11,520 bases of DNA, from the IMG/VR virus record IMGVR_UViG_2974636330_000001, positions 85,023 through 96,542 of that record. One strand, given 5' to 3'. Position 1 is the stretch's first letter; each line of letters opens with the position of its first letter. This DNA is from a virus. Its lineage: Duplodnaviria; Heunggongvirae; Uroviricota; Caudoviricetes. The position numbers were made by a program, and so were the translations under genes. Positions 561 to 5,973 of the stretch are shown one piece after another. Under the pieces are notes generated by a model. That model ran no database searches and was not told where the DNA came from. It saw only the letters and a list, made by a program, of their open reading frames with translations.

Positions 561-2498
561 ATGTTTGTCAGCATTTTCAGTAAGGAACAGCAGACCATCG
601 AGAATCTCGGTGGTAAAGGCTTCGGTCTGTGGCAGATGCAGCAGTCGGGCCTGAATGTCCCCCCGGCGCTGATCATCCCGACCGAGTTCTGCATCGAGTA
701 CCTCGCCAACCCGACGAAAGTGCGGGGCTGGATCAAGGACAAGTTGCCGGAAGTCCGTGAGTTCTTCGTGGAGCAGTTCGGCTACATGCCGCTGCTGTCT
801 GTCCGCTCCGGCGCTCGCACGTCGATGCCGGGCATGATGGACACGATTCTCAACGTCGGCCTCGACCCGCACACCACGCAGTTCTGGGTGGACAAGCTGG
901 GTCCGGCCTGCACCATGGACAGCCGCGAACGTCTGATCGAAATGTACGGTTCGGTGGTTGATGAACTGGACCGCGAAGACTTCGAAGGTCTGGACGTTGC
1001 GGGCCGACTGGCTCTGTACAAGGAACACACGGGCCACGACTTCCCGGAGGCAGATGACCAGATTCTCGGGGCCATCGAAGCCGTGTTCCGCAGCTGGAAC
1101 AACGACCGCGCCAAGGTGTACCGGAAGATGCACGGCATCCCGGAAGAGTGGGGCACGGCGGTGACCCTGCAAGCGATGGTGTTCGGCAACTACAACGACC
1201 AGTCGGCGACCGGTGTGCTGTTCACCCGCAACCCGGACAACGGGCTGGCTGAAGTGACCGGCGAGTTCCTGATCAACGCACAGGGCGAGGACGTGGTGGC
1301 GGGCATCAAGACCCCGCAGAAGCTGTACGACATGAAGGCGTGGAACGAGAAGGTCTACAACGAGCTGTTGGCCACGGTGATCGATCTCGAACTGAAGCGT
1401 AAGGACGTGCAGGACGTGGAGTTCACCATCCAAGATGGCAAGCTCTATATCCTCCAGACCCGTAACGCCAAGCGCAGTGCGCAGGCAGCGGTGAAGATCG
1501 CTCTGGACATGGTGGGCGAGAAGCTGCTGACCCCCACGGAAGCGATCAAGCGGGTGAGCCGCGCACAGTACGGCATGATGCGCCAGCCGATCCTCGACCC
1601 GAAGTTCAAGGACAAGGCAGAGTGGGAAGGCATCGCCGCCTGCTCGGGCGTGGCAACGGGCGTTGTGGTCCATTCGTCGCAGGCTGCAATTGATTGCAAG
1701 GTGCCCTGCATCTTGGTCACCAAGGAAACCACCCCGGATGATATCGCGGGCATGGTGGCCGCTCAGGCGGTGATCACGATGCAAGGTGGCAGCACCAGCC
1801 ACGCAGCGGTGGTGGCTCGCGGCATGAACAAGCCGTGCATCGTGGGCGTCGGCGCTGAAATCTCGGAGTTCAAGAAGGGTGTCGTGGTCAGTATCGACGG
1901 CGCAACTGGTCGTATCTGGCAGGGCGAAGTCCCGGTGATCGACAACAGTAAGTCGGAAGAACTGGAGAAGTTCAACCAGATGATGCTGGAGGCAGGCAAT
2001 GTCCAGATCATCAGCACCGACCACAACACTCCCTGCGCCATGCTGGATTTGACCGAGGTCATCCAGACGCCGGAAGTCGCGTTGGAGCGTATCCGTGGGC
2101 GGCTGCTCCAGAAGGGCGAGTTCATTGTCGATATCAGCCCGGGCGACACCGAGGCCGGACGTATGGTCAGCATGTTCTGTGACCCGGTGGATTTGCAGGA
2201 AGACCTGCTGGTGATGGTGGCCAAGAGCCTGACGAAGGAGCAGCTGGCCCGGGTGTCGTTCTCGACGGACTTCACCAAGGAGGTTCCGGGGGTGTCCTGC
2301 ATCAGTCGAGTGACCACGCTGGAGGCTCTGATCGAGAGCGACGGCAACTTTGAAATGGCCATGAAGGTGTCGAAAGTGGTCAAGAAGGTGCTGGCTTGGA
2401 AGGCCAACGAGAACTGCCACCCGATGGTGTTCGGCACGAGGACTGAAGGCAATTCGTTCCTCTCTCAGGAACAGGTGATCGCGGAGTTGCTGGCGTGA
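561..2498 (+). CDS. Pyruvate phosphate dikinase-like phosphotransferase (ATP-grasp plus phospho-His swivel domain; PEP/pyruvate TIM barrel absent, replaced by about 185 aa of unknown domain)
   Basis: PPDK motifs in canonical order: LGGKG, LSVRSGA..SMPGMMDTILNVG, LQAMVFGN, SATGVLFTRNP, GEFLINAQGEDVVAG, DVEFTI, LYILQTRNAKR, ETTPDDIAGM, GGSTSHAAVVARG (His codon 1800-1802), VSIDGATG. About 645 aa, against about 880 for canonical PPDK. ATG 561 fits the RBS spacing; GTG 558 is an alternative start. Confidence 0.9.
   Translation: MFVSIFSKEQQTIENLGGKGFGLWQMQQSGLNVPPALIIPTEFCIEYLANPTKVRGWIKDKLPEVREFFVEQFGYMPLLSVRSGARTSMPGMMDTILNVGLDPHTTQFWVDKLGPACTMDSRERLIEMYGSVVDELDREDFEGLDVAGRLALYKEHTGHDFPEADDQILGAIEAVFRSWNNDRAKVYRKMHGIPEEWGTAVTLQAMVFGNYNDQSATGVLFTRNPDNGLAEVTGEFLINAQGEDVVAGIKTPQKLYDMKAWNEKVYNELLATVIDLELKRKDVQDVEFTIQDGKLYILQTRNAKRSAQAAVKIALDMVGEKLLTPTEAIKRVSRAQYGMMRQPILDPKFKDKAEWEGIAACSGVATGVVVHSSQAAIDCKVPCILVTKETTPDDIAGMVAAQAVITMQGGSTSHAAVVARGMNKPCIVGVGAEISEFKKGVVVSIDGATGRIWQGEVPVIDNSKSEELEKFNQMMLEAGNVQIISTDHNTPCAMLDLTEVIQTPEVALERIRGRLLQKGEFIVDISPGDTEAGRMVSMFCDPVDLQEDLLVMVAKSLTKEQLARVSFSTDFTKEVPGVSCISRVTTLEALIESDGNFEMAMKVSKVVKKVLAWKANENCHPMVFGTRTEGNSFLSQEQVIAELLA
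1685..1698 (-). promoter_or_regulatory. Dispersed 14-bp pseudo-palindrome TGCAAT-CA-ATTGCA, copy 1 (TGCAATTGATTGCA on +)
   Basis: Exact reverse complement of the 14-mers at 5536 and 11498. Embedded in the dikinase CDS using locally unusual codons (gca att gat). Confidence 0.65.
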
Positions 2499-2543
2499 AA
2501 CCCGCTCTGTACAATGGCTGGAACCTGAAGGAACCCCAGCCCC

Positions 2544-2960
2544 ATGAGATCAGAGTGCCCGAAGTGCGGAAGTCAGTCCGCGTGGATCGAACAGACCCGG
2601 CAGGATACGACGCTTCGTTGCGTATGCGGCTACCTGAAAGTGCTTTCCACGAAGCTGGAGCGGATCGAAATCATCCGGGTGGACGTGGAAGCCGAGGCGA
2701 AGTTGCCTCGACGGAACTCGAATCTCTGGAACACGGTGAAGGTTTTGGAGGTGTACCAGCCAGCGTCGTCGGCGAGTATCACCCAGCGCCTGAACGACTT
2801 GAAGCTGGGCACCGAGTTCACGGTGAGTGATGTGAGTTCGTACCTCACCATCCTGCGCTCGAAGGGACTGGTCGTAACGACCGAAAGTCGCCGAGGGCTG
2901 GCCGGGGGGAGTACGTGGAAACTGAGTGATGTTTGTAACAGGCTGCTGGGAGTAGGGTGA
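2544..2960 (+). CDS. Zn-ribbon plus winged helix-turn-helix protein, putative transcription regulator
   Basis: N-terminal CPKC...CVCG. The C-terminal LWNTVKVL..ASSASITQRL..TVSDVSSYLTILRSKGLV..RRG..GGSTWKLS has the helix-helix-recognition helix-wing pattern. Start uncertain (see finding at 2483). Confidence 0.7.
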   Translation: MRSECPKCGSQSAWIEQTRQDTTLRCVCGYLKVLSTKLERIEIIRVDVEAEAKLPRRNSNLWNTVKVLEVYQPASSASITQRLNDLKLGTEFTVSDVSSYLTILRSKGLVVTTESRRGLAGGSTWKLSDVCNRLLGVG

Positions 2961-2961
2961 A

Positions 2962-3303
2962 ATGGCACTGTCAATTGGAGTGAAGAAGGGGAGTCAGATC
3001 AACATCGGCGGCGAGCGTATCGGAGGCCGCACGATCATGGACATGTACCAGCGTCCGAAGCTGATCGACTACACCCTGAAAGGTGGGCAAACGATGACGG
3101 TGGTGCAGGTGGACGGCACCGAGAAGATCGTCGTGGAGTTCTGCGGAAAGACCCTGACCCTGACCGACAAAGAGCGCGTGAAGTTGCAGGAAGGTGTGTT
3201 CGTCAGCTGCGGCCTGTCGAATGGCAAGGGGCAGGACTTCTACGGGCGTCTGGCATTCGAGGCTCCAAGGAGTGTGCGAATTGAGCGCATCCACACCCCC
3301 TGA
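2962..3303 (+). CDS. CsrA/RsmA-like RNA-binding protein, possibly a tandem (two-repeat) form
   Basis: C-terminal GRLAFEAPRSVRIER matches CsrA VRIGVNAPKEVSVHR, including the R44-equivalent Arg. N-terminal VKKGSQINIGG matches RRVGETLMIGD. At 113 aa it is about twice CsrA length. By-eye alignment only. Confidence 0.55.
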   Translation: MALSIGVKKGSQINIGGERIGGRTIMDMYQRPKLIDYTLKGGQTMTVVQVDGTEKIVVEFCGKTLTLTDKERVKLQEGVFVSCGLSNGKGQDFYGRLAFEAPRSVRIERIHTP

Positions 3304-3313
3304 CTACGAAGAA

Positions 3314-3670
3314 ATGAACGTCAGCACTTCGGTGCTGGAGTACGCTGAGAAGCAGGGCATTACCCTCACCCAGCTGTTGGACATGGTAGAAGCGTCTGCG
3401 CGGGTCAGCCACTCGCGGGGAAACAGGCGTTATCACAATTGGCTGTTTTTGGTCGAAAATAATCTCGTAAAAGGCATGTCACCACTTCACATGGTGGAGT
3501 CTTTTGCTACGATAAATCACCCCCCAACCCCGGGGCCGGGGGAGTTCTTGGTCTACGAAGACTGCGAGGACTGCGACGGCAAGGGATGCACCAAATGTGA
3601 CGGCATGGGCGAAGTCGCCATGATCCGTCGAACCCCAAAAGAACGTAATGGAGTAAGGTATGAACGGTAA
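3314..3670 (+). CDS. Hypothetical protein with C-terminal DnaJ-type CxxCxGxG zinc finger
   Basis: ATG 3314 follows the stop at 3303. CEDCDGKG and CTKCDGMG repeats. The ORF-track start at 3194 overlaps the previous gene and is unlikely. Confidence 0.7.
   Translation: MNVSTSVLEYAEKQGITLTQLLDMVEASARVSHSRGNRRYHNWLFLVENNLVKGMSPLHMVESFATINHPPTPGPGEFLVYEDCEDCDGKGCTKCDGMGEVAMIRRTPKERNGVRYER
3486..3513 (+). promoter_or_regulatory. Internal promoter cassette P2 (TTCACA-N16-TACGAT) inside the 3314-3670 CDS
   Basis: TTTTGC directly precedes the -10, as in P1 and P6. The -10 is identical to that of P3. AAAGGCA lies 7 nt before the -35 and GTCGAA a further 21 bp upstream. Locally AT-rich. Confidence 0.5.
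3646..3656 (+). promoter_or_regulatory. Variant leader/RBS motif TAATGGAGTAA
   Basis: Same core AATGGAGT and same 3-nt gap to ATG 3660 as most CAATGGAGTGA copies. The flanking C..G pair is replaced by T..A. Confidence 0.65.
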
Positions 3671-4130
3671 GTTGCCTCTGCGTCTGAATGATCGACAGTT
3701 CTTCTTCGTGTACGGTGGCCCGTACAAGCTGCGCCCGGCCAAGATGGTCGGCGTCAAGATGGCCATCGAAATCGACCGCCCCTTCGATATCGAAGTCCCC
3801 ACGGTGGATTTCCAAGTCCCGGCCATGGAAGACATGATCGAAGGCATCGACAAGGCCGTGACCGAAATCCTGAAGGGCAAGCCCCTCTACGTCGGCTGCA
3901 TGGGCGGCATCGGGCGCACCGGCCTGTTCCTCGCCTGCCTCGCCAAGGTGTTCGGTGAGAAAGACCCGGTGCTGTACGTGCGCAAGCACTACATTCCCCA
4001 CGCGGTGGAAACGATGGCGCAGCAGAAGTTCGTCGCCAACTTCAACCCGAAGCCGTGGACCCTGCGCAAAATCAAGATTGCAGGCTTTTTCTTGCGTATT
4101 TCGCGTAAAAATCTCTTGACCAAGGGCTGA
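3660..4130 (+). CDS. Cys-dependent dual-specificity/tyrosine phosphatase family protein (CX5R), paralog 1
   Basis: P-loop YVGCMGGIGRTG (Cys codon 3897). Upstream acid loop PTVDFQVP and downstream VRKHY..AVET..Q. Confidence 0.88.
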   Translation: MNGKLPLRLNDRQFFFVYGGPYKLRPAKMVGVKMAIEIDRPFDIEVPTVDFQVPAMEDMIEGIDKAVTEILKGKPLYVGCMGGIGRTGLFLACLAKVFGEKDPVLYVRKHYIPHAVETMAQQKFVANFNPKPWTLRKIKIAGFFLRISRKNLLTKG

Positions 4131-4143
4131 TTTTCGGTACGAT
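4116..4143 (+). promoter_or_regulatory. Promoter cassette P3 (TTGACC-N16-TACGAT)
   Basis: Overlaps the 3' end of phosphatase 1. Tandem GCGTA at 4094 and 4103 sits where other cassettes carry GGCGAA. Followed by ATACGTAT and the leader motif at 4158. Confidence 0.7.
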
Positions 4144-4157
4144 ATACGTATCGGGAA

Positions 4158-4168
4158 CAATGGAGTGA
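4158..4168 (+). promoter_or_regulatory. Leader/RBS motif CAATGGAGTGA, copy 2
   Basis: Exact copy, 3 nt before ATG 4172. Confidence 0.85.
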
Positions 4169-4171
4169 TCA

Positions 4172-5188
4172 ATGAAGTATCGGAGCAAAGACACTGTTGC
4201 GAGTCTGCTGGCAATCCCGCAGGCCCGGGCAGTGGACATGTCGCAGATCGACGCCGAGAAGGTCGCTGGTCGCATCCGTGAGTTCAAGAAGACCTGCAAA
4301 GAAGCGAGTCCGGAGGGCGAGGCTCTCCGGTTCTACGGTCTGAACCAGTGCATGGCAGTGATCGCCAAGAAGTACGGGCAGCACGGTGTACTGCCCCCGC
4401 ACTTGAAGGCAGTGGCCGAAGCCTACGTCAGGGAGTTGGTGGATCAGTCGGAGCGGCTGTTCTCCTACATGGTCCTGATCAACACCCGCGAGAGCCGCCA
4501 CGTCCACGGCGGCAAGGGTGACTTCGATGGGAAGTTCGCCAAGGAGTTCGGGAAGGAAGCGCTGAAGTTCAACGAGACGATCCGGGGCAGCGGTTCCAGC
4601 ACGGCGGTTGATCGCTTCATCACCAACCCCCCGAAGATGAAGATCGGCCCCTACCTGCGCTCTCTGGAGTGGTGTTTCTTCAACGGGTCGTTCAGCGGTG
4701 GCTTCGGCGGCAAGCCGTGGGGCAACATCGCCAAGACTCTGGCGGATGCCGTCAACGGCGTCACCAGCATGGAAATCATGGTGGACACGGCGTACACGCT
4801 GGCCCACAACAACGGCCCGATGTTCAACAAGGGCATGATGTACGGCCACTACGGCGAAACGATCTACCGGGTTCTGGACGTGCAGCGTTCGGGTCAGGTG
4901 GTTGAGTTGTGCCGCAGCGGGACGGTCTCCCAGTTCATCAAGAAGTCCGATTTGCTGCCGCTGTTCGATGCGGTAGTGAAGGAGTTCCCTGACGAGTTTG
5001 GCGAGTATGTTGACTGGATCAAGGTCGAGAAGCTCGGTTCGGTGAAGAAGTACCCGAACGAAATCAAGGAACAGAAGATCAAGTACGGGGAGCAACTTGG
5101 CCCTGAGTTCAAGAACATGAAGCCTTCCGGCAAGCTCGAAGTGTTCCCGGAAGTGTTCGTCACCCTGATGAAGAGGCAGGCAAAGTGA
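4172..5188 (+). CDS. Hypothetical 338-aa protein with enzyme-like motifs
   Basis: Strong RBS and typical codon usage. Motif-like segments RESRH, GGFGGKPWGNI and DTAYTLAHNNGPMFNK. No family assigned with confidence. Confidence 0.85.
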   Translation: MKYRSKDTVASLLAIPQARAVDMSQIDAEKVAGRIREFKKTCKEASPEGEALRFYGLNQCMAVIAKKYGQHGVLPPHLKAVAEAYVRELVDQSERLFSYMVLINTRESRHVHGGKGDFDGKFAKEFGKEALKFNETIRGSGSSTAVDRFITNPPKMKIGPYLRSLEWCFFNGSFSGGFGGKPWGNIAKTLADAVNGVTSMEIMVDTAYTLAHNNGPMFNKGMMYGHYGETIYRVLDVQRSGQVVELCRSGTVSQFIKKSDLLPLFDAVVKEFPDEFGEYVDWIKVEKLGSVKKYPNEIKEQKIKYGEQLGPEFKNMKPSGKLEVFPEVFVTLMKRQAK

Positions 5189-5973
5189 GCAAGGGCAAAG
5201 GATACAAGGGCAGGGGCATGACCATCGTCGGCGACCTGTTGGGAGGCAACAGCGGCACCACGTACCGTCGTTGCTACGAAGACCACCCGGTGATCGAGTT
5301 CGACAACGGCGAGGGCAAGCCGAAGGGCATCCTCGCAGGCGGCAACTGCGCCTACCCGATCCACAAGGATGCCGACGTGTACATCGGCCTCGACTACAGT
5401 TTCCGCCGCCAGTTCGGGTCGGACTATCCGTGGGAGCCGAAGAGCGAGAATGGCCCCATCGAGTTCGAATACCTGATCAGCGACATGCGCGCCCCGTCGA
5501 ACACCGACAGCGCCATGAAGATGATCGACTGGGTTTGCAATCAATTGCAAGCTGGCAAGAAGGTCCACATCGGCTGCATCGGTGGCCATGGCCGGACTGG
5601 CACGATCATCGCGGCCATCGTCTCCAAGCTGTGCGGCCTCGAAGACGCCATCACGTGGGTTCGCAAGAACTACTGCAAGAAGGCCGTCGAGTCCCGCGAG
5701 CAGATCGAATGGCTCAACAAGAACTACGGCATCAAGAAGGTGGGCGGTAGCAAGGAAGGCGGCAGTCATGCCCCGTTCCCCTCCACCAGCCACAGCAACC
5801 GCTACGACGAAAGCAAGTACAAGTCGAGCGGCAAGTCCAGCAGTAGCAGCCGCAGCAGTTCGTCGGGCGGCTACTCGGGGTATCAGGGTTCGCTGGTGGC
5901 GGAATCGTTCGGCGGCAAGTCGGAAAAGATCACCCCCATGCAGTCGAAGTCCAACGTGTGGAAAAGCCCGTAA
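5185..5973 (+). CDS. Cys-dependent DSP/PTP phosphatase (CX5R), paralog 2, with Ser/Gly-rich tail
   Basis: HIGCIGGHGRTG (codons 5575-5595 for CX5R), acid loop ISDMRAP, and VRKNY..AVES..Q. GTG start overlaps the upstream stop (GTGA); ATG 5218 is an alternative. Confidence 0.88.
   Translation: MSKGKGYKGRGMTIVGDLLGGNSGTTYRRCYEDHPVIEFDNGEGKPKGILAGGNCAYPIHKDADVYIGLDYSFRRQFGSDYPWEPKSENGPIEFEYLISDMRAPSNTDSAMKMIDWVCNQLQAGKKVHIGCIGGHGRTGTIIAAIVSKLCGLEDAITWVRKNYCKKAVESREQIEWLNKNYGIKKVGGSKEGGSHAPFPSTSHSNRYDESKYKSSGKSSSSSRSSSSGGYSGYQGSLVAESFGGKSEKITPMQSKSNVWKSP
5536..5549 (+). promoter_or_regulatory. Dispersed 14-bp pseudo-palindrome TGCAATCAATTGCA, copy 2
   Basis: Lies inside phosphatase 2, encoded by tgc aat caa ttg caa, where this genome otherwise prefers aac/cag/ctg. 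Confidence 0.65.

What the first reader, a model, noticed from the sequence alone, without database searches (positions are those of the whole stretch)
561..5973. Candidate phage phosphorylation-cycle module: acceptor-less PPDK-like dikinase, two CX5R phosphatases and an unknown enzyme
Seen: a dikinase with intact ATP-grasp and phospho-His motifs but no pyruvate-binding barrel lies within about 1.2-2.7 kb of two paralogous CxGGxGRTG phosphatases that flank a 338-aa unknown. Established: the dikinase ATP-grasp/His-swivel core is reused with other acceptors in rifampin phosphotransferase and in plant glucan/phosphoglucan water dikinases, whose phosphates are removed by CX5R dual-specificity phosphatases (SEX4, LSF2). 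CX5R enzymes also act on RNA 5'-triphosphates and phosphoinositides. Inference: this is a phage writer/eraser system for a non-pyruvate substrate (protein, nucleic-acid end, sugar or small metabolite), possibly used in host takeover or counter-defence. I know of no description of it but cannot search the literature.
Basis: partly seen in the sequence, partly recalled or inferred. Interest (0 to 1): 0.85.

Follow-up and report, generated by a model that had tools for sequence, protein, structure and literature searches.

The report
Phage dikinase-phosphatase module beside polymerase
A large group of tailed phages, here Stenotrophomonas phage DLP5, always carries next to its DNA polymerase a fixed gene set: an ATP-driven phosphate-carrier enzyme that papers label a glycolytic "PPDK" but that cannot bind pyruvate, one or two cysteine phosphatases, and an enzyme-like protein of unknown fold. 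Its target is unknown.

Summary
The window is the last 11.5 kb of phage DLP5. The gene at 561-2498 encodes a PPDK-type dikinase. Every ATP-grasp and swivel-His catalytic residue is invariant in 48 relatives. Its C-terminal 185 residues fold as a small, fast-evolving barrel-like domain with no PEP/pyruvate site.

Two active-looking minimal Cys-phosphatases flank a 338-aa all-helical protein. That protein has 28 invariant residues and no match among solved folds.

The genes are not independently distributed. In 90 related loci the dikinase lies upstream in 73/73, a phosphatase upstream in 84/86 and downstream in 84/85, and PolA downstream in 78/79. The set belongs to the roughly 20-gene core shared by Stenotrophomonas, Rhizobium, Rhodobacter and Vibrio phages. 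All of this is one lineage, so the linkage may be inherited rather than functional.

Papers only call the dikinase a glycolytic auxiliary gene, which the sequence contradicts.

My best reading (about 0.45) is an ATP to His to non-pyruvate-acceptor relay serving nucleotide or DNA metabolism. DLP5 and DLP3 DNA resists most restriction enzymes. Host takeover or counter-defence is not supported.

This scan had already flagged the same cassette on other DNA. The substrate remains unknown.

The parts
561..2498 (+). PPDK-derived dikinase (645 aa from ATG 561). It has an ATP-grasp nucleotide-binding domain, a swivel phospho-His domain (His415) and a vestigial barrel-like C-terminal domain (residues 462-646).
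   Evidence: Pfam and PHROG matches. PDB alignment. NCBIfam short-PPDK model NF004531 scores 464.5 bits against a cut-off of 456, while TIGR01828 scores 466 against 843. Invariant residues. C-terminal domain model and fold matches. No barrel sequence similarity.
2544..2960 (+). 138-aa small protein with a weak N-terminal Zn-ribbon (Lar-like) match. It is an accessory to the block.
   Evidence: Pfam Lar_restr_allev E 0.0028, below the cut-off. A homologue was detected in 28 of 90 related loci.
2962..3303 (+). 113-aa small protein whose C-terminus resembles the CsrA RNA-binding motif. It is an accessory.
   Evidence: Pfam CsrA E 0.23 only. The motif was read from the sequence. A homologue was detected in 28 of 90 loci.
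3281..3670 (+). 129-aa small protein that overlaps both neighbouring genes.
   Evidence: ORF list. Start taken from the Summit annotation. A homologue was detected in 42 of 90 loci. Only weak CXXC-type Pfam hints.
3660..4130 (+). Phosphatase 1: a minimal Cys-phosphatase (156 aa) with D50, C80, R86, T87 and Q121. It is a core member of the module.
   Evidence: Pfam PF22785 29.7 bits and PF22784 29.3 bits against a cut-off of 27. The nearest solved relatives are Tk-PTP 5z59, DUSP23 and SsoPTP. Residues are invariant in 76 homologues. Present in all four sublineages.
4172..5188 (+). 338-aa all-helical protein of orphan fold with an enzyme-like set of invariant residues (R95, R106, E107, R109, H110, E201, D205, H212, N213, N219, K220, D236, Q238). 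It is a core member and the candidate acceptor-binding or catalytic partner.
   Evidence: Alignment of 57 homologues. Model pLDDT 93. No solved-fold match: Foldseek best E 0.31, VIA best Z 3.9. Only its own family appears in BFVD and AFDB. Co-occurrence.
5185..5973 (+). Phosphatase 2 (262 aa): a Cys-phosphatase paralogue with an N-terminal extension, extra invariant Cys and His residues (C30, H34, H128, H135, C164) and a Ser-rich tail. It is translationally coupled to the 338-aa gene and is absent from the Vibrio branch.
   Evidence: Pfam PF22785 31.8 bits against 27. PDB relatives. Invariant residues and the commonest -4 nt overlap with the upstream gene. Absence from J26 and SIO-2.
6059..6910 (+). 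283-aa protein made of an N-terminal domain, a Pro/Lys-rich linker and a conserved C-terminal domain of about 110 aa (S215, R217, E219, S244, H246).
   Evidence: Sequence. Conserved in RcZahn, TM16, J26 and 70 of 90 loci. No family assignment: a weak RsmE hit at E 0.0045, far below the cut-off, and nothing in PDB or Atlas.
7671..9881 (+). Family-A DNA polymerase with 3'-5' exonuclease. It is the invariable downstream neighbour and marks the lineage.
   Evidence: Pfam DNA_pol_A 4.3e-62. The PolA clade above 40% identity is the same set of phages that holds the module. PolA lies downstream in 78 of 79 loci.

Best explanation
This is a real, co-inherited phosphoryl-transfer module. It belongs to the core genome of one large siphophage lineage and sits immediately upstream of that lineage's DNA polymerase.

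Shown:
- The dikinase has a complete PPDK-type ATP-grasp and a swivel His domain.
- It has no PEP/pyruvate site, so it is not a glycolytic PPDK.
- Its C-terminal barrel-like domain is vestigial and evolves fast.
- One or two minimal Cys-phosphatases and an invariant-rich orphan-fold protein always accompany it.

Inferred mechanism:
1. ATP (plus Pi) gives AMP, PPi and enzyme-His415~P at the ATP-grasp domain.
2. The swivel domain then delivers the phosphoryl group to a non-pyruvate acceptor.
3. That acceptor is held by a partner protein rather than by the degenerate barrel. The best candidate is the 338-aa protein. The 283-aa protein's conserved Ser/His domain is the second candidate. The analogy is multi-subunit dikinases and the Enzyme I to HPr transfer.
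4. The Cys-phosphatases hydrolyse either the product or a competing phospho-compound.

The most likely field of action is nucleotide or DNA metabolism tied to replication, and to the heavy, chemically unidentified DNA modification of DLP5 and DLP3. It is not host signalling.
For: - Catalytic residues of the ATP-grasp and His domains are invariant in 48 homologues.
- TIGR01828 scores 466 bits against a cut-off of 843, and hhalign finds no barrel similarity. This excludes PEP/pyruvate chemistry.
- The C-terminal domain has 27% mean column identity and a single invariant Asp, while the 338-aa protein has 28 invariant, mostly charged or polar positions. The conserved active-site-like surface is therefore in the partner, not in the barrel.
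- Phosphatase catalytic residues are invariant.
- Strict co-occurrence and fixed order: 73/73, 84/86, 84/85 and 78/79, and the same 37-38 isolated phages.
- The 338-aa gene is translationally coupled to phosphatase 2.
- The module genes are among the roughly 20 genes shared by DLP5, RcZahn, TM16 and J26. All the others with a recognisable function are replication, recombination or virion genes.
- DLP5 DNA was cut by only 4 of 36 restriction enzymes (PMC5834331). DLP3 DNA was cut by 0 of 15 (PMC7326821).
- From my own knowledge, unchecked here: split dikinases such as phenylphosphate synthase place substrate binding on a separate subunit. PPDK's ATP-grasp interconverts a nucleoside monophosphate plus PPi with a triphosphate.
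Against: - No substrate evidence of any kind exists.
- All co-occurrence is within one syntenic lineage, so it does not prove a shared pathway.
- No gene fusions between parts were found in 90 loci.
- The amino-sugar cassette and the ThyX-like gene, which could explain the DNA modification, are not co-conserved with the module. Both are absent from the Vibrio phages.
- I found no report that Vibrio members have modified DNA.
- The phosphatases' nearest solved relatives are archaeal and DUSP23-type protein phosphatases. That leans towards a protein substrate.
- Earlier notes of this scan report similar cassettes in non-phage ultra-small bacteria (untested here). That would argue against a purely phage-DNA function.
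Confidence: 0.45

Rival explanations
1. Reversible protein phosphorylation or a phosphorelay. The dikinase passes phosphate from His415 to a protein, and the Cys-phosphatases erase the mark. The target could be the conserved Ser/His C-terminal domain of the 283-aa protein, the 338-aa protein itself, or a host protein.
For: - The nearest solved relatives of both phosphatases are protein phosphatases (Tk-PTP, SsoPTP, DUSP23).
- The PEP-utiliser family includes Enzyme I, which phosphorylates the small protein HPr (own knowledge).
- The 283-aa protein has invariant S215, R217, E219, S244 and H246 in a small domain.
- Earlier scan notes describe dikinase + phosphatase + small-protein cassettes in bacteria (untested here).
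Against: - No target has been identified.
- A minimal PTP fold does not fix substrate class.
- The 28 invariant polar residues of the 338-aa protein look like an active site rather than a passive target.
- Core status next to PolA is unusual for host-takeover kinases, which tend to be variable early genes (own knowledge).
Confidence: 0.25
2. There is no common pathway. The genes are neighbours only because the whole lineage inherited this gene order. The dikinase, the phosphatases and the 338-aa protein act on unrelated substrates.
For: - Every case of co-occurrence lies in one lineage with conserved synteny from terminase to portal.
- No fusions were found.
- Phosphatase 2 can be lost while the rest stays.
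Against: - Accessory genes around the block turn over freely. The small ORFs are present in only 28-42 of 90 loci, and the sugar cassette and ThyX-like gene are lost in the Vibrio branch. Yet dikinase, phosphatase 1 and the 338-aa gene are never separated at 30-45% protein identity.
- Kinase-type and phosphatase-type chemistry are complementary.
- Gene overlaps suggest co-translation.
Confidence: 0.15
3. Sugar or small-metabolite activation, like glucan water dikinase with SEX4/LSF2. The dikinase phosphorylates a sugar or a precursor of the amino sugar that the soil members probably attach to their DNA, and the phosphatases trim it.
For: - An amino-sugar cassette (deacetylase, epimerase/dehydratase, aminotransferase, methyltransferase, glycosyltransferase) is conserved in DLP5, DLP3, RcZahn and in part TM16, just upstream of the packaging genes.
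- DSP-type phosphatases act on glucans in plants (own knowledge).
Against: - The sugar cassette is absent from Vibrio phage J26, although the module is present there.
- No carbohydrate-binding module was detected in any module protein.
Confidence: 0.1
4. It is a true auxiliary metabolic PPDK that interconverts pyruvate and PEP to boost host glycolysis, as stated in the phage genome papers.
For: - Annotation in GenBank records and papers.
- The N-terminal 480 residues are about 46% identical in profile alignment to a canonical PPDK.
Against: - The PEP/pyruvate domain is missing in sequence.
- The equivalog model TIGR01828 is failed by a wide margin (466 against 843 bits).
- The replacement domain is half the size and has one invariant residue.
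Confidence: 0.02

Closest known systems
Pyruvate, phosphate dikinase (EC 2.7.9.1; C. symbiosum 1KBL/1DIK; TIGR01828)
   Same: It shares the ATP-grasp nucleotide-binding domain and the central swivel phospho-His domain, in the same order and with all catalytic residues (K22, D321, E323, Q335, R337, T453 and H455 equivalents). Alignment E 4.5e-102.
   Different: The 340-residue PEP/pyruvate barrel is replaced by a 185-residue barrel-like domain with no sequence similarity and no conserved catalytic set. The protein fails the equivalog cut-off. It is encoded with Cys-phosphatases and an orphan-fold protein beside a phage polymerase.
Short 'PPDK' of the PRK05878 type (NCBIfam NF004531; the short actinobacterial ppdK, from my own knowledge)
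   Same: It scores 464.5 bits against a cut-off of 456 over profile positions 17-490 of 534. The architecture is likewise limited to the ATP-grasp plus His domain.
   Different: The phage protein has an extra 160-185-residue C-terminal domain, and its gene context differs. The function of the short family is itself unknown to me.
Multi-subunit or repurposed PEP-utiliser dikinases: phenylphosphate synthase, HpeHI/CreHI, rifampin phosphotransferase, glucan water dikinase (own knowledge; lead from scan notes)
   Same: They use the same ATP to His~P to non-pyruvate-acceptor logic. In the split enzymes the substrate-binding function sits on a separate polypeptide, which is what I propose for the 338-aa protein.
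   Different: Here the ATP-grasp and His domains are on one chain in PPDK order. The His domain is not C-terminal as it is in rifampin phosphotransferase (NF041857 scores 40.9 bits against 999). The putative partner has an unrelated, unsolved fold. No phosphatase partner is known for those systems except GWD with SEX4/LSF2.
Minimal archaeal/DUSP23-type Cys-phosphatases (Tk-PTP 5Z59, SsoPTP 2I6I, DUSP23 4ERC)
   Same: They share the CX5R(T) P-loop of the C-x-G-G-x-G-R-T-G type, the general-acid Asp about 30 residues upstream, the distal A-V-E-T...Q motif and a size of about 150 aa.
   Different: Sequence similarity is low (E 6e-6 to 2e-8). Phosphatase 2 has an N-terminal extension with invariant Cys and His residues and a Ser-rich tail. 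The phage context is different and the substrate is unknown.
Polymerase-linked nucleotide-pool remodelling modules of phages with non-canonical DNA, such as T4 gp42/gp1/gp56 and PurZ/MazZ/DatZ with DpoZ (own knowledge)
   Same: These are lineage-core enzymes of phosphate chemistry encoded next to a lineage-specific DNA polymerase, in phages whose DNA resists restriction enzymes.
   Different: No component is homologous. No base-modifying enzyme has been recognised. The analogy is functional only and is untested.

Membership tests
Pyruvate, phosphate dikinase (TIGR01828 equivalog) | ATP-grasp nucleotide-binding domain with the catalytic Lys/Asp/Glu/Gln/Arg set | tested here: met
   PF01326 matches at 1.7e-43. 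K20, D286, E288, Q300 and R302 align to K22, D321, E323, Q335 and R337 of the C. symbiosum enzyme and are invariant in 48 homologues.
Pyruvate, phosphate dikinase (TIGR01828 equivalog) | Central swivel domain with the Thr-Ser-His phospho-carrier motif | tested here: met
   PF00391 matches at 7.9e-25. T413 and H415 align to T453 and H455 and are invariant.
Pyruvate, phosphate dikinase (TIGR01828 equivalog) | C-terminal PEP/pyruvate-binding TIM barrel, and a whole-protein score above the curated cut-off | tested here: not met
   TIGR01828 scores 466.3 bits against a cut-off of 843.45. The family profile aligns to a canonical 882-aa PPDK only up to its residue 518. The C-terminal profile compared with the canonical barrel gives hhalign probability 0.2. 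A barrel-like fold is retained, with Z 7.4-9.1 to PPDK, Enzyme I and PEP synthase barrels.
Short PPDK-like proteins (NCBIfam NF004531, PRK05878) | Whole-protein score above the curated cut-off | tested here: met
   The score is 464.5 bits against a cut-off of 456, covering residues 8-487 and profile positions 17-490 of 534. The margin is small, and residues 488-646 lie outside the model.
Cys-based PTP/DSP phosphatases (Pfam PF22785 Tc-R-P, PF22784 PTP-SAK) | CX5R P-loop with a catalytic Cys and Arg, plus a general-acid Asp | tested here: met
   C80, R86 and D50 (phosphatase 1) and C131, R137 and D100 (phosphatase 2) are invariant in 76 and 78 distinct homologues. PF22785 scores 29.7 and 31.8 bits against a cut-off of 27. 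PF22784 scores 29.3 (over the cut-off) and 24.8 (under it).
Rifampin phosphotransferase type dikinases | Domain order ATP-grasp, then substrate-binding domain, then C-terminal His swivel domain | tested here: not met
   The swivel domain is central (residues 383-451 of 646) and is followed by the barrel-like domain. NF041857 scores 40.9 bits against a cut-off of 999.
Glucan water dikinase with SEX4/LSF2 glucan phosphatases | Carbohydrate-binding modules on the kinase and/or the phosphatase | tested here: not met
   No CBM family appears among the Pfam hits for the dikinase, either phosphatase or the other module proteins at E up to 0.01-1.
Thymidine hypermodification systems (5-hmU DNA kinase plus aGPT-type pyrophosphorylase) | P-loop 5-hmU DNA kinase, aGPT-Pplase and a pyrimidine hydroxymethylase | tested here: inconclusive
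   None of the window's proteins matched such Pfam, NCBIfam or PHROG families. The only thymidylate-synthase-like gene in the genome is a divergent ThyX-like ORF (22.6 bits) that is not shared with the other sublineages. The 338-aa fold was not compared directly with an aGPT-Pplase structure.
Two-component dikinases (phenylphosphate synthase, HpeHI, CreHI) | ATP-binding subunit and His/substrate-binding subunit on separate polypeptides | tested here: not met
   The ATP-grasp and His domains are on one chain here. Only the proposed trans-acting acceptor partner resembles that design, and it is not shown.

The most novel reading that the evidence does not exclude
The module is the engine of a still-unidentified DNA or nucleotide modification shared by the whole lineage. 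The PPDK-derived dikinase would activate a nucleotide or a base in DNA by phosphoryl transfer. Alternatively it would rebuild a non-canonical dNTP from its monophosphate and PPi. The orphan-fold 338-aa enzyme would carry out a new group-transfer step. The Cys-phosphatases would remove the canonical competitor or the leaving phosphate. The co-inherited PolA would be adapted to the product.
Probability: 0.3. Interest if true: 0.85.

Novelty: new variant of a known kind. Interest (0 to 1): 0.62.

Why it matters
At least six phage papers and dozens of GenBank records present this gene as a glycolytic auxiliary metabolic gene. The sequence shows that it cannot be one. That misreading affects how marine and soil phage "metabolic reprogramming" is counted.

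The real function is unknown. It is evidently indispensable to a lineage of well over a hundred phages and prophages infecting Vibrio, Stenotrophomonas, Rhizobium, Rhodobacter and many uncultured hosts. Some of these phages are being developed for therapy and aquaculture.

The module pairs a well-understood phosphate-carrier engine with a protein of unsolved fold that has a clear active-site signature. At least two members have DNA that resists nearly all restriction enzymes. A few simple experiments could therefore reveal either a new dikinase substrate class or a new route of DNA modification.

Tried and rejected
- Fold of the 338-aa protein. PDB Foldseek gave a best E of 0.31. VIA-align against 48,161 chains gave a best Z of 3.9. 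The ESM Atlas by shape gave TM 0.33 or less, and by features nothing. BFVD and AFDB returned only its own family and a few unnamed weak hits. Pfam run on all 57 homologues returned nothing. "DUF5636", the name of the best AFDB hit, led to no useful paper.
- The C-terminal domain of the dikinase has almost no detectable sequence relatives. There were 2 by word search and 5 weak ones in 1.8 billion representatives.
- The 283-aa protein has no PDB, Atlas or Pfam assignment.
- PADLOC defence models gave no hits for any module protein.
- The ThyX-like gene as a co-conserved base-modifying partner was rejected. It is absent from RcZahn, J26, TM16 and SIO-2.
- The sugar cassette as an obligate partner was rejected. 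It is absent from J26.
- Rosetta-stone fusions between module parts: none in 90 loci.
- The one chromosomal locus without PolA (L016) turned out to be a decayed prophage end, not an independent context.
- Bacillus phage G gp139 is only a 365-aa fragment-like relative with no phosphatase nearby.
- Literature. No paper links the dikinase to DNA modification or describes the module. The SIO-2 paper is not held. I could not find restriction data for the Vibrio members.
- The lead from earlier scan notes, that bacterial versions fuse an all-helical domain to the dikinase, could not be tested.

Full report
**Identity of the window.** The window is 91% identical to Stenotrophomonas phage Summit and 83% identical to phage DLP3, both in genus Delepquintavirus. 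The genome held for it is a 96,542-bp virus record, and the window covers 85,023-96,542 of it. That length is the published size of phage DLP5 (PMC5834331). All genes in the window lie on the + strand.

**The dikinase.** ORF 558/561-2498 matches Pfam PPDK_N and the PEP-utilizers swivel domain, and PHROG 18609 "kinase" end to end.
- Residues 12-479 align to residues 13-528 of Clostridium symbiosum PPDK (E 4.5e-102).
- K20, D286, E288, Q300, R302, T413 and H415 correspond to K22, D321, E323, Q335, R337, T453 and H455. All are invariant in an alignment of 48 homologues of 45-84% identity.
- The protein fails the PPDK equivalog model (466 bits against a cut-off of 843). It just passes the model for short PPDK-like proteins, NF004531 (464.5 against 456).

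- It has hardly any detectable sequence relatives. Its mean column identity is 27%, with one invariant residue, D525.
- It nevertheless folds with pLDDT 95 into an eight-strand beta/alpha domain.
- Its structural neighbours are all TIM-type barrels. Among them are the PEP-binding domains of PEP synthase (Z 9.1, 180 residues aligned), Enzyme I (Z 7.7), pyruvate kinase (Z 8.0) and maize PPDK (Z 7.4). HpaI-type pyruvate aldolases also appear.
- These Z values are only a little above what unrelated models reach. I therefore call it barrel-like and plausibly a pared-down remnant, not proven homology.
- A profile of this domain finds nothing in a canonical PPDK barrel (hhalign probability 0.2). The whole-family profile aligns to a canonical 882-aa PPDK only up to residue 518.
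- The enzyme can therefore almost certainly charge its histidine from ATP, but it has no PEP/pyruvate site.

**The phosphatases.** The products of 3660-4130 and 5185-5973 pass the gathering score of Pfam PF22785.
- Their closest solved relatives are the minimal archaeal phosphatases Tk-PTP and SsoPTP, and DUSP23.
- The general-acid Asp, the Cys and Arg of CX5R, the following Thr and a distal Gln are invariant in 76 and 78 distinct homologues.
- Phosphatase 2 also has invariant C30, H34, H128, H135 and C164, and in DLP5 a Ser-rich tail.
- The PHROG label "thymidylate synthase" for this family is an annotation error carried by several GenBank records.

**The 338-aa protein.** It has 366 detectable relatives, mostly on metagenomic contigs of 80-105 kb.
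- 28 columns are invariant across 57 sequences of 36-76% identity. Most are charged or polar: R95, R106, E107, R109, H110, E201, D205, H212, N213, N219, K220, D236, Q238.
- The model is confident (pLDDT 93, all-helical with a terminal hairpin).
- It matches no solved structure, no Atlas cluster and no Pfam family. Only its own family appears in viral and AlphaFold libraries.
- It looks like an enzyme or a ligand-binding subunit of a fold not yet solved.

**Distribution.**
- Among 50,697 phage records, the phosphatase family occurs in 37 and the 338-aa family in 38. These are Vibrio siphophages of the SIO-2/VHS1/J26 type, the Delepquintavirus phages, two Rhizobium phages and Rhodobacter phage RcZahn. 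The dikinase also occurs in these records, on the same strand and in the same order. Its weaker or partial hits elsewhere look like ordinary bacterial PPDK on unverified contigs or are fragments.
- The same records form the PolA clade above 40% identity. The next polymerase is at 31%.
- In a survey of 90 further loci (80 IMG/VR contigs and 10 bacterial-genome contigs), the dikinase was upstream in 73 of 73 loci with enough flank. A phosphatase was upstream in 84 of 86 and downstream in 84 of 85. PolA was downstream in 78 of 79.
- The single chromosomal exception is a decayed prophage end.
- A whole-genome comparison of DLP5 with RcZahn, TM16 and J26 finds roughly 20 shared genes. These include portal, protease, scaffold, capsid, terminase, helicases, primase, RecA, exonuclease, RuvC, an RNase E-like protein, AAA ATPases and PolA. 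They also include the dikinase, phosphatase 1, the 338-aa protein and the 283-aa protein of 6059-6910.
- Phosphatase 2 is missing from the Vibrio branch.
- The small ORFs between the dikinase and phosphatase 1 are detectable in only 28-42 of the 90 loci. No fusions between parts occur.

**What this means.**
- All the evidence still comes from one lineage with conserved order from terminase to portal. Linkage alone therefore cannot prove a common substrate.
- What argues for function is the contrast between the never-broken core and the free turnover of everything around it, at 30-45% protein identity. The 4-nt overlap of the 338-aa gene with phosphatase 2 is also the commonest arrangement across the loci.
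- Core status among replication and virion genes, with no match to defence models, speaks against a host-specific counter-defence role.

**Which sphere of action?**
- DLP5 DNA was cut by only 4 of 36 restriction enzymes. DLP3 DNA was cut by none of 15. The chemistry is unknown.
- An amino-sugar cassette beside the packaging genes is shared with RcZahn, and in part with TM16, but not with J26. The ThyX-like gene is confined to the Stenotrophomonas phages. Neither can be the module's obligate partner.
- I found no restriction data for the Vibrio members.
- The phosphatases' nearest relatives are protein phosphatases.
- I therefore put a nucleotide/DNA-linked role first, mainly because of the polymerase linkage and core status. 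The margin over a protein phosphorelay is modest. In that rival, the conserved Ser/His domain of the 283-aa protein would be a natural acceptor, by analogy with Enzyme I and HPr.

**Mechanism proposed** (all steps inferred):
1. ATP (plus Pi) charges His415.
2. The swivel domain carries the phosphate to an acceptor bound by a partner rather than by the degenerate barrel. The partner, not the barrel, carries the conserved active-site-like residues. Multi-subunit dikinases such as phenylphosphate synthase set a precedent (own knowledge; lead).
3. The phosphatases hydrolyse the product or a competing compound.

**Literature.** The searchable papers treat the gene only as a glycolytic auxiliary metabolic gene. 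They include a 2025 paper that models PEP docking into it. None describes the module.

**Earlier notes of this scan.** The scan had already flagged the same cassette repeatedly on other DNA, including versions in ultra-small bacteria. I used those notes as leads only.
- I confirmed the polymerase linkage and the PRK05878 relationship.
- I disagree with the statement that the phage enzyme lacks any C-terminal barrel.
- I could not test the suggested equivalence between the phage helical protein and the bacterial fused helical domain.

**Verdict.** This is a real, undescribed variant of the repurposed-dikinase theme with an unknown substrate.

Noticed in passing
window 10657-11348 (also 10876-11002 and 11338-11464): There is a perfect 346-nt inverted repeat with no spacer (10657-11002 against 11003-11348), plus a 127-nt exact direct repeat, at the right end of the DLP5 record. 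The 263-aa ORF at 10703-11494 runs through it. This is either an assembly fold-back artefact or a real terminal palindrome. DLP5 is reported to persist as a phagemid.
   Followed up: partly
window 1685-1698 (-), 5536-5549 (+), 11498-11511 (+): The 14-bp near-palindrome TGCAATCAATTGCA occurs three times, against 0.01 expected. Two copies lie inside the dikinase and phosphatase 2 genes. Earlier scan notes describe it as a genome-wide spaced motif.
   Followed up: partly
window 2962-3303: The 113-aa product ends in a motif like the CsrA RNA-binding strand (A-P-R-x-V-x-I-x-R). The Pfam CsrA match is only E 0.23. In Vibrio phage J26 the gene in the corresponding position is annotated CsrA.
   Followed up: partly
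window 10002-10025: A strong GC-rich hairpin with T-runs on both strands lies just after the polymerase gene. It is the only convincing terminator-like site between 561 and 10400.
   Followed up: no
L016:4735-10451 (Thalassobaculaceae chromosome): This is a decayed prophage end. A chimeric 629-aa ORF joins an FAD_binding_3 domain to the PEP-utilizers swivel domain. It is followed by a Cys-phosphatase, a homologue of the 338-aa protein and an integrase. There is no co-oriented PolA downstream.
   Followed up: partly
L121:6713-7810 (Bacillus phage G gp139): A 365-aa PPDK-like fragment (part of the ATP-grasp plus the swivel domain) sits among nucleotide-metabolism genes (DHFR, a MazG-like gene, thymidine kinase). 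No phosphatase lies nearby.
   Followed up: no
G000:C1:73334-74227 (L022:1441-2334): A divergent ThyX-like ORF (22.6 bits to Pfam Thy1, borderline) lies just after the terminase gene. It has no detectable homologue in the Rhodobacter, Rhizobium or Vibrio relatives.
   Followed up: partly
PHROG 17568 and GenBank records of DLP3, SIO-2, sm030, 29Fa.3 and CAU_VPP01: The Cys-phosphatase family is labelled "thymidylate synthase" in PHROGs and in several phage records. Nothing in the sequences supports that name.
   Followed up: yes
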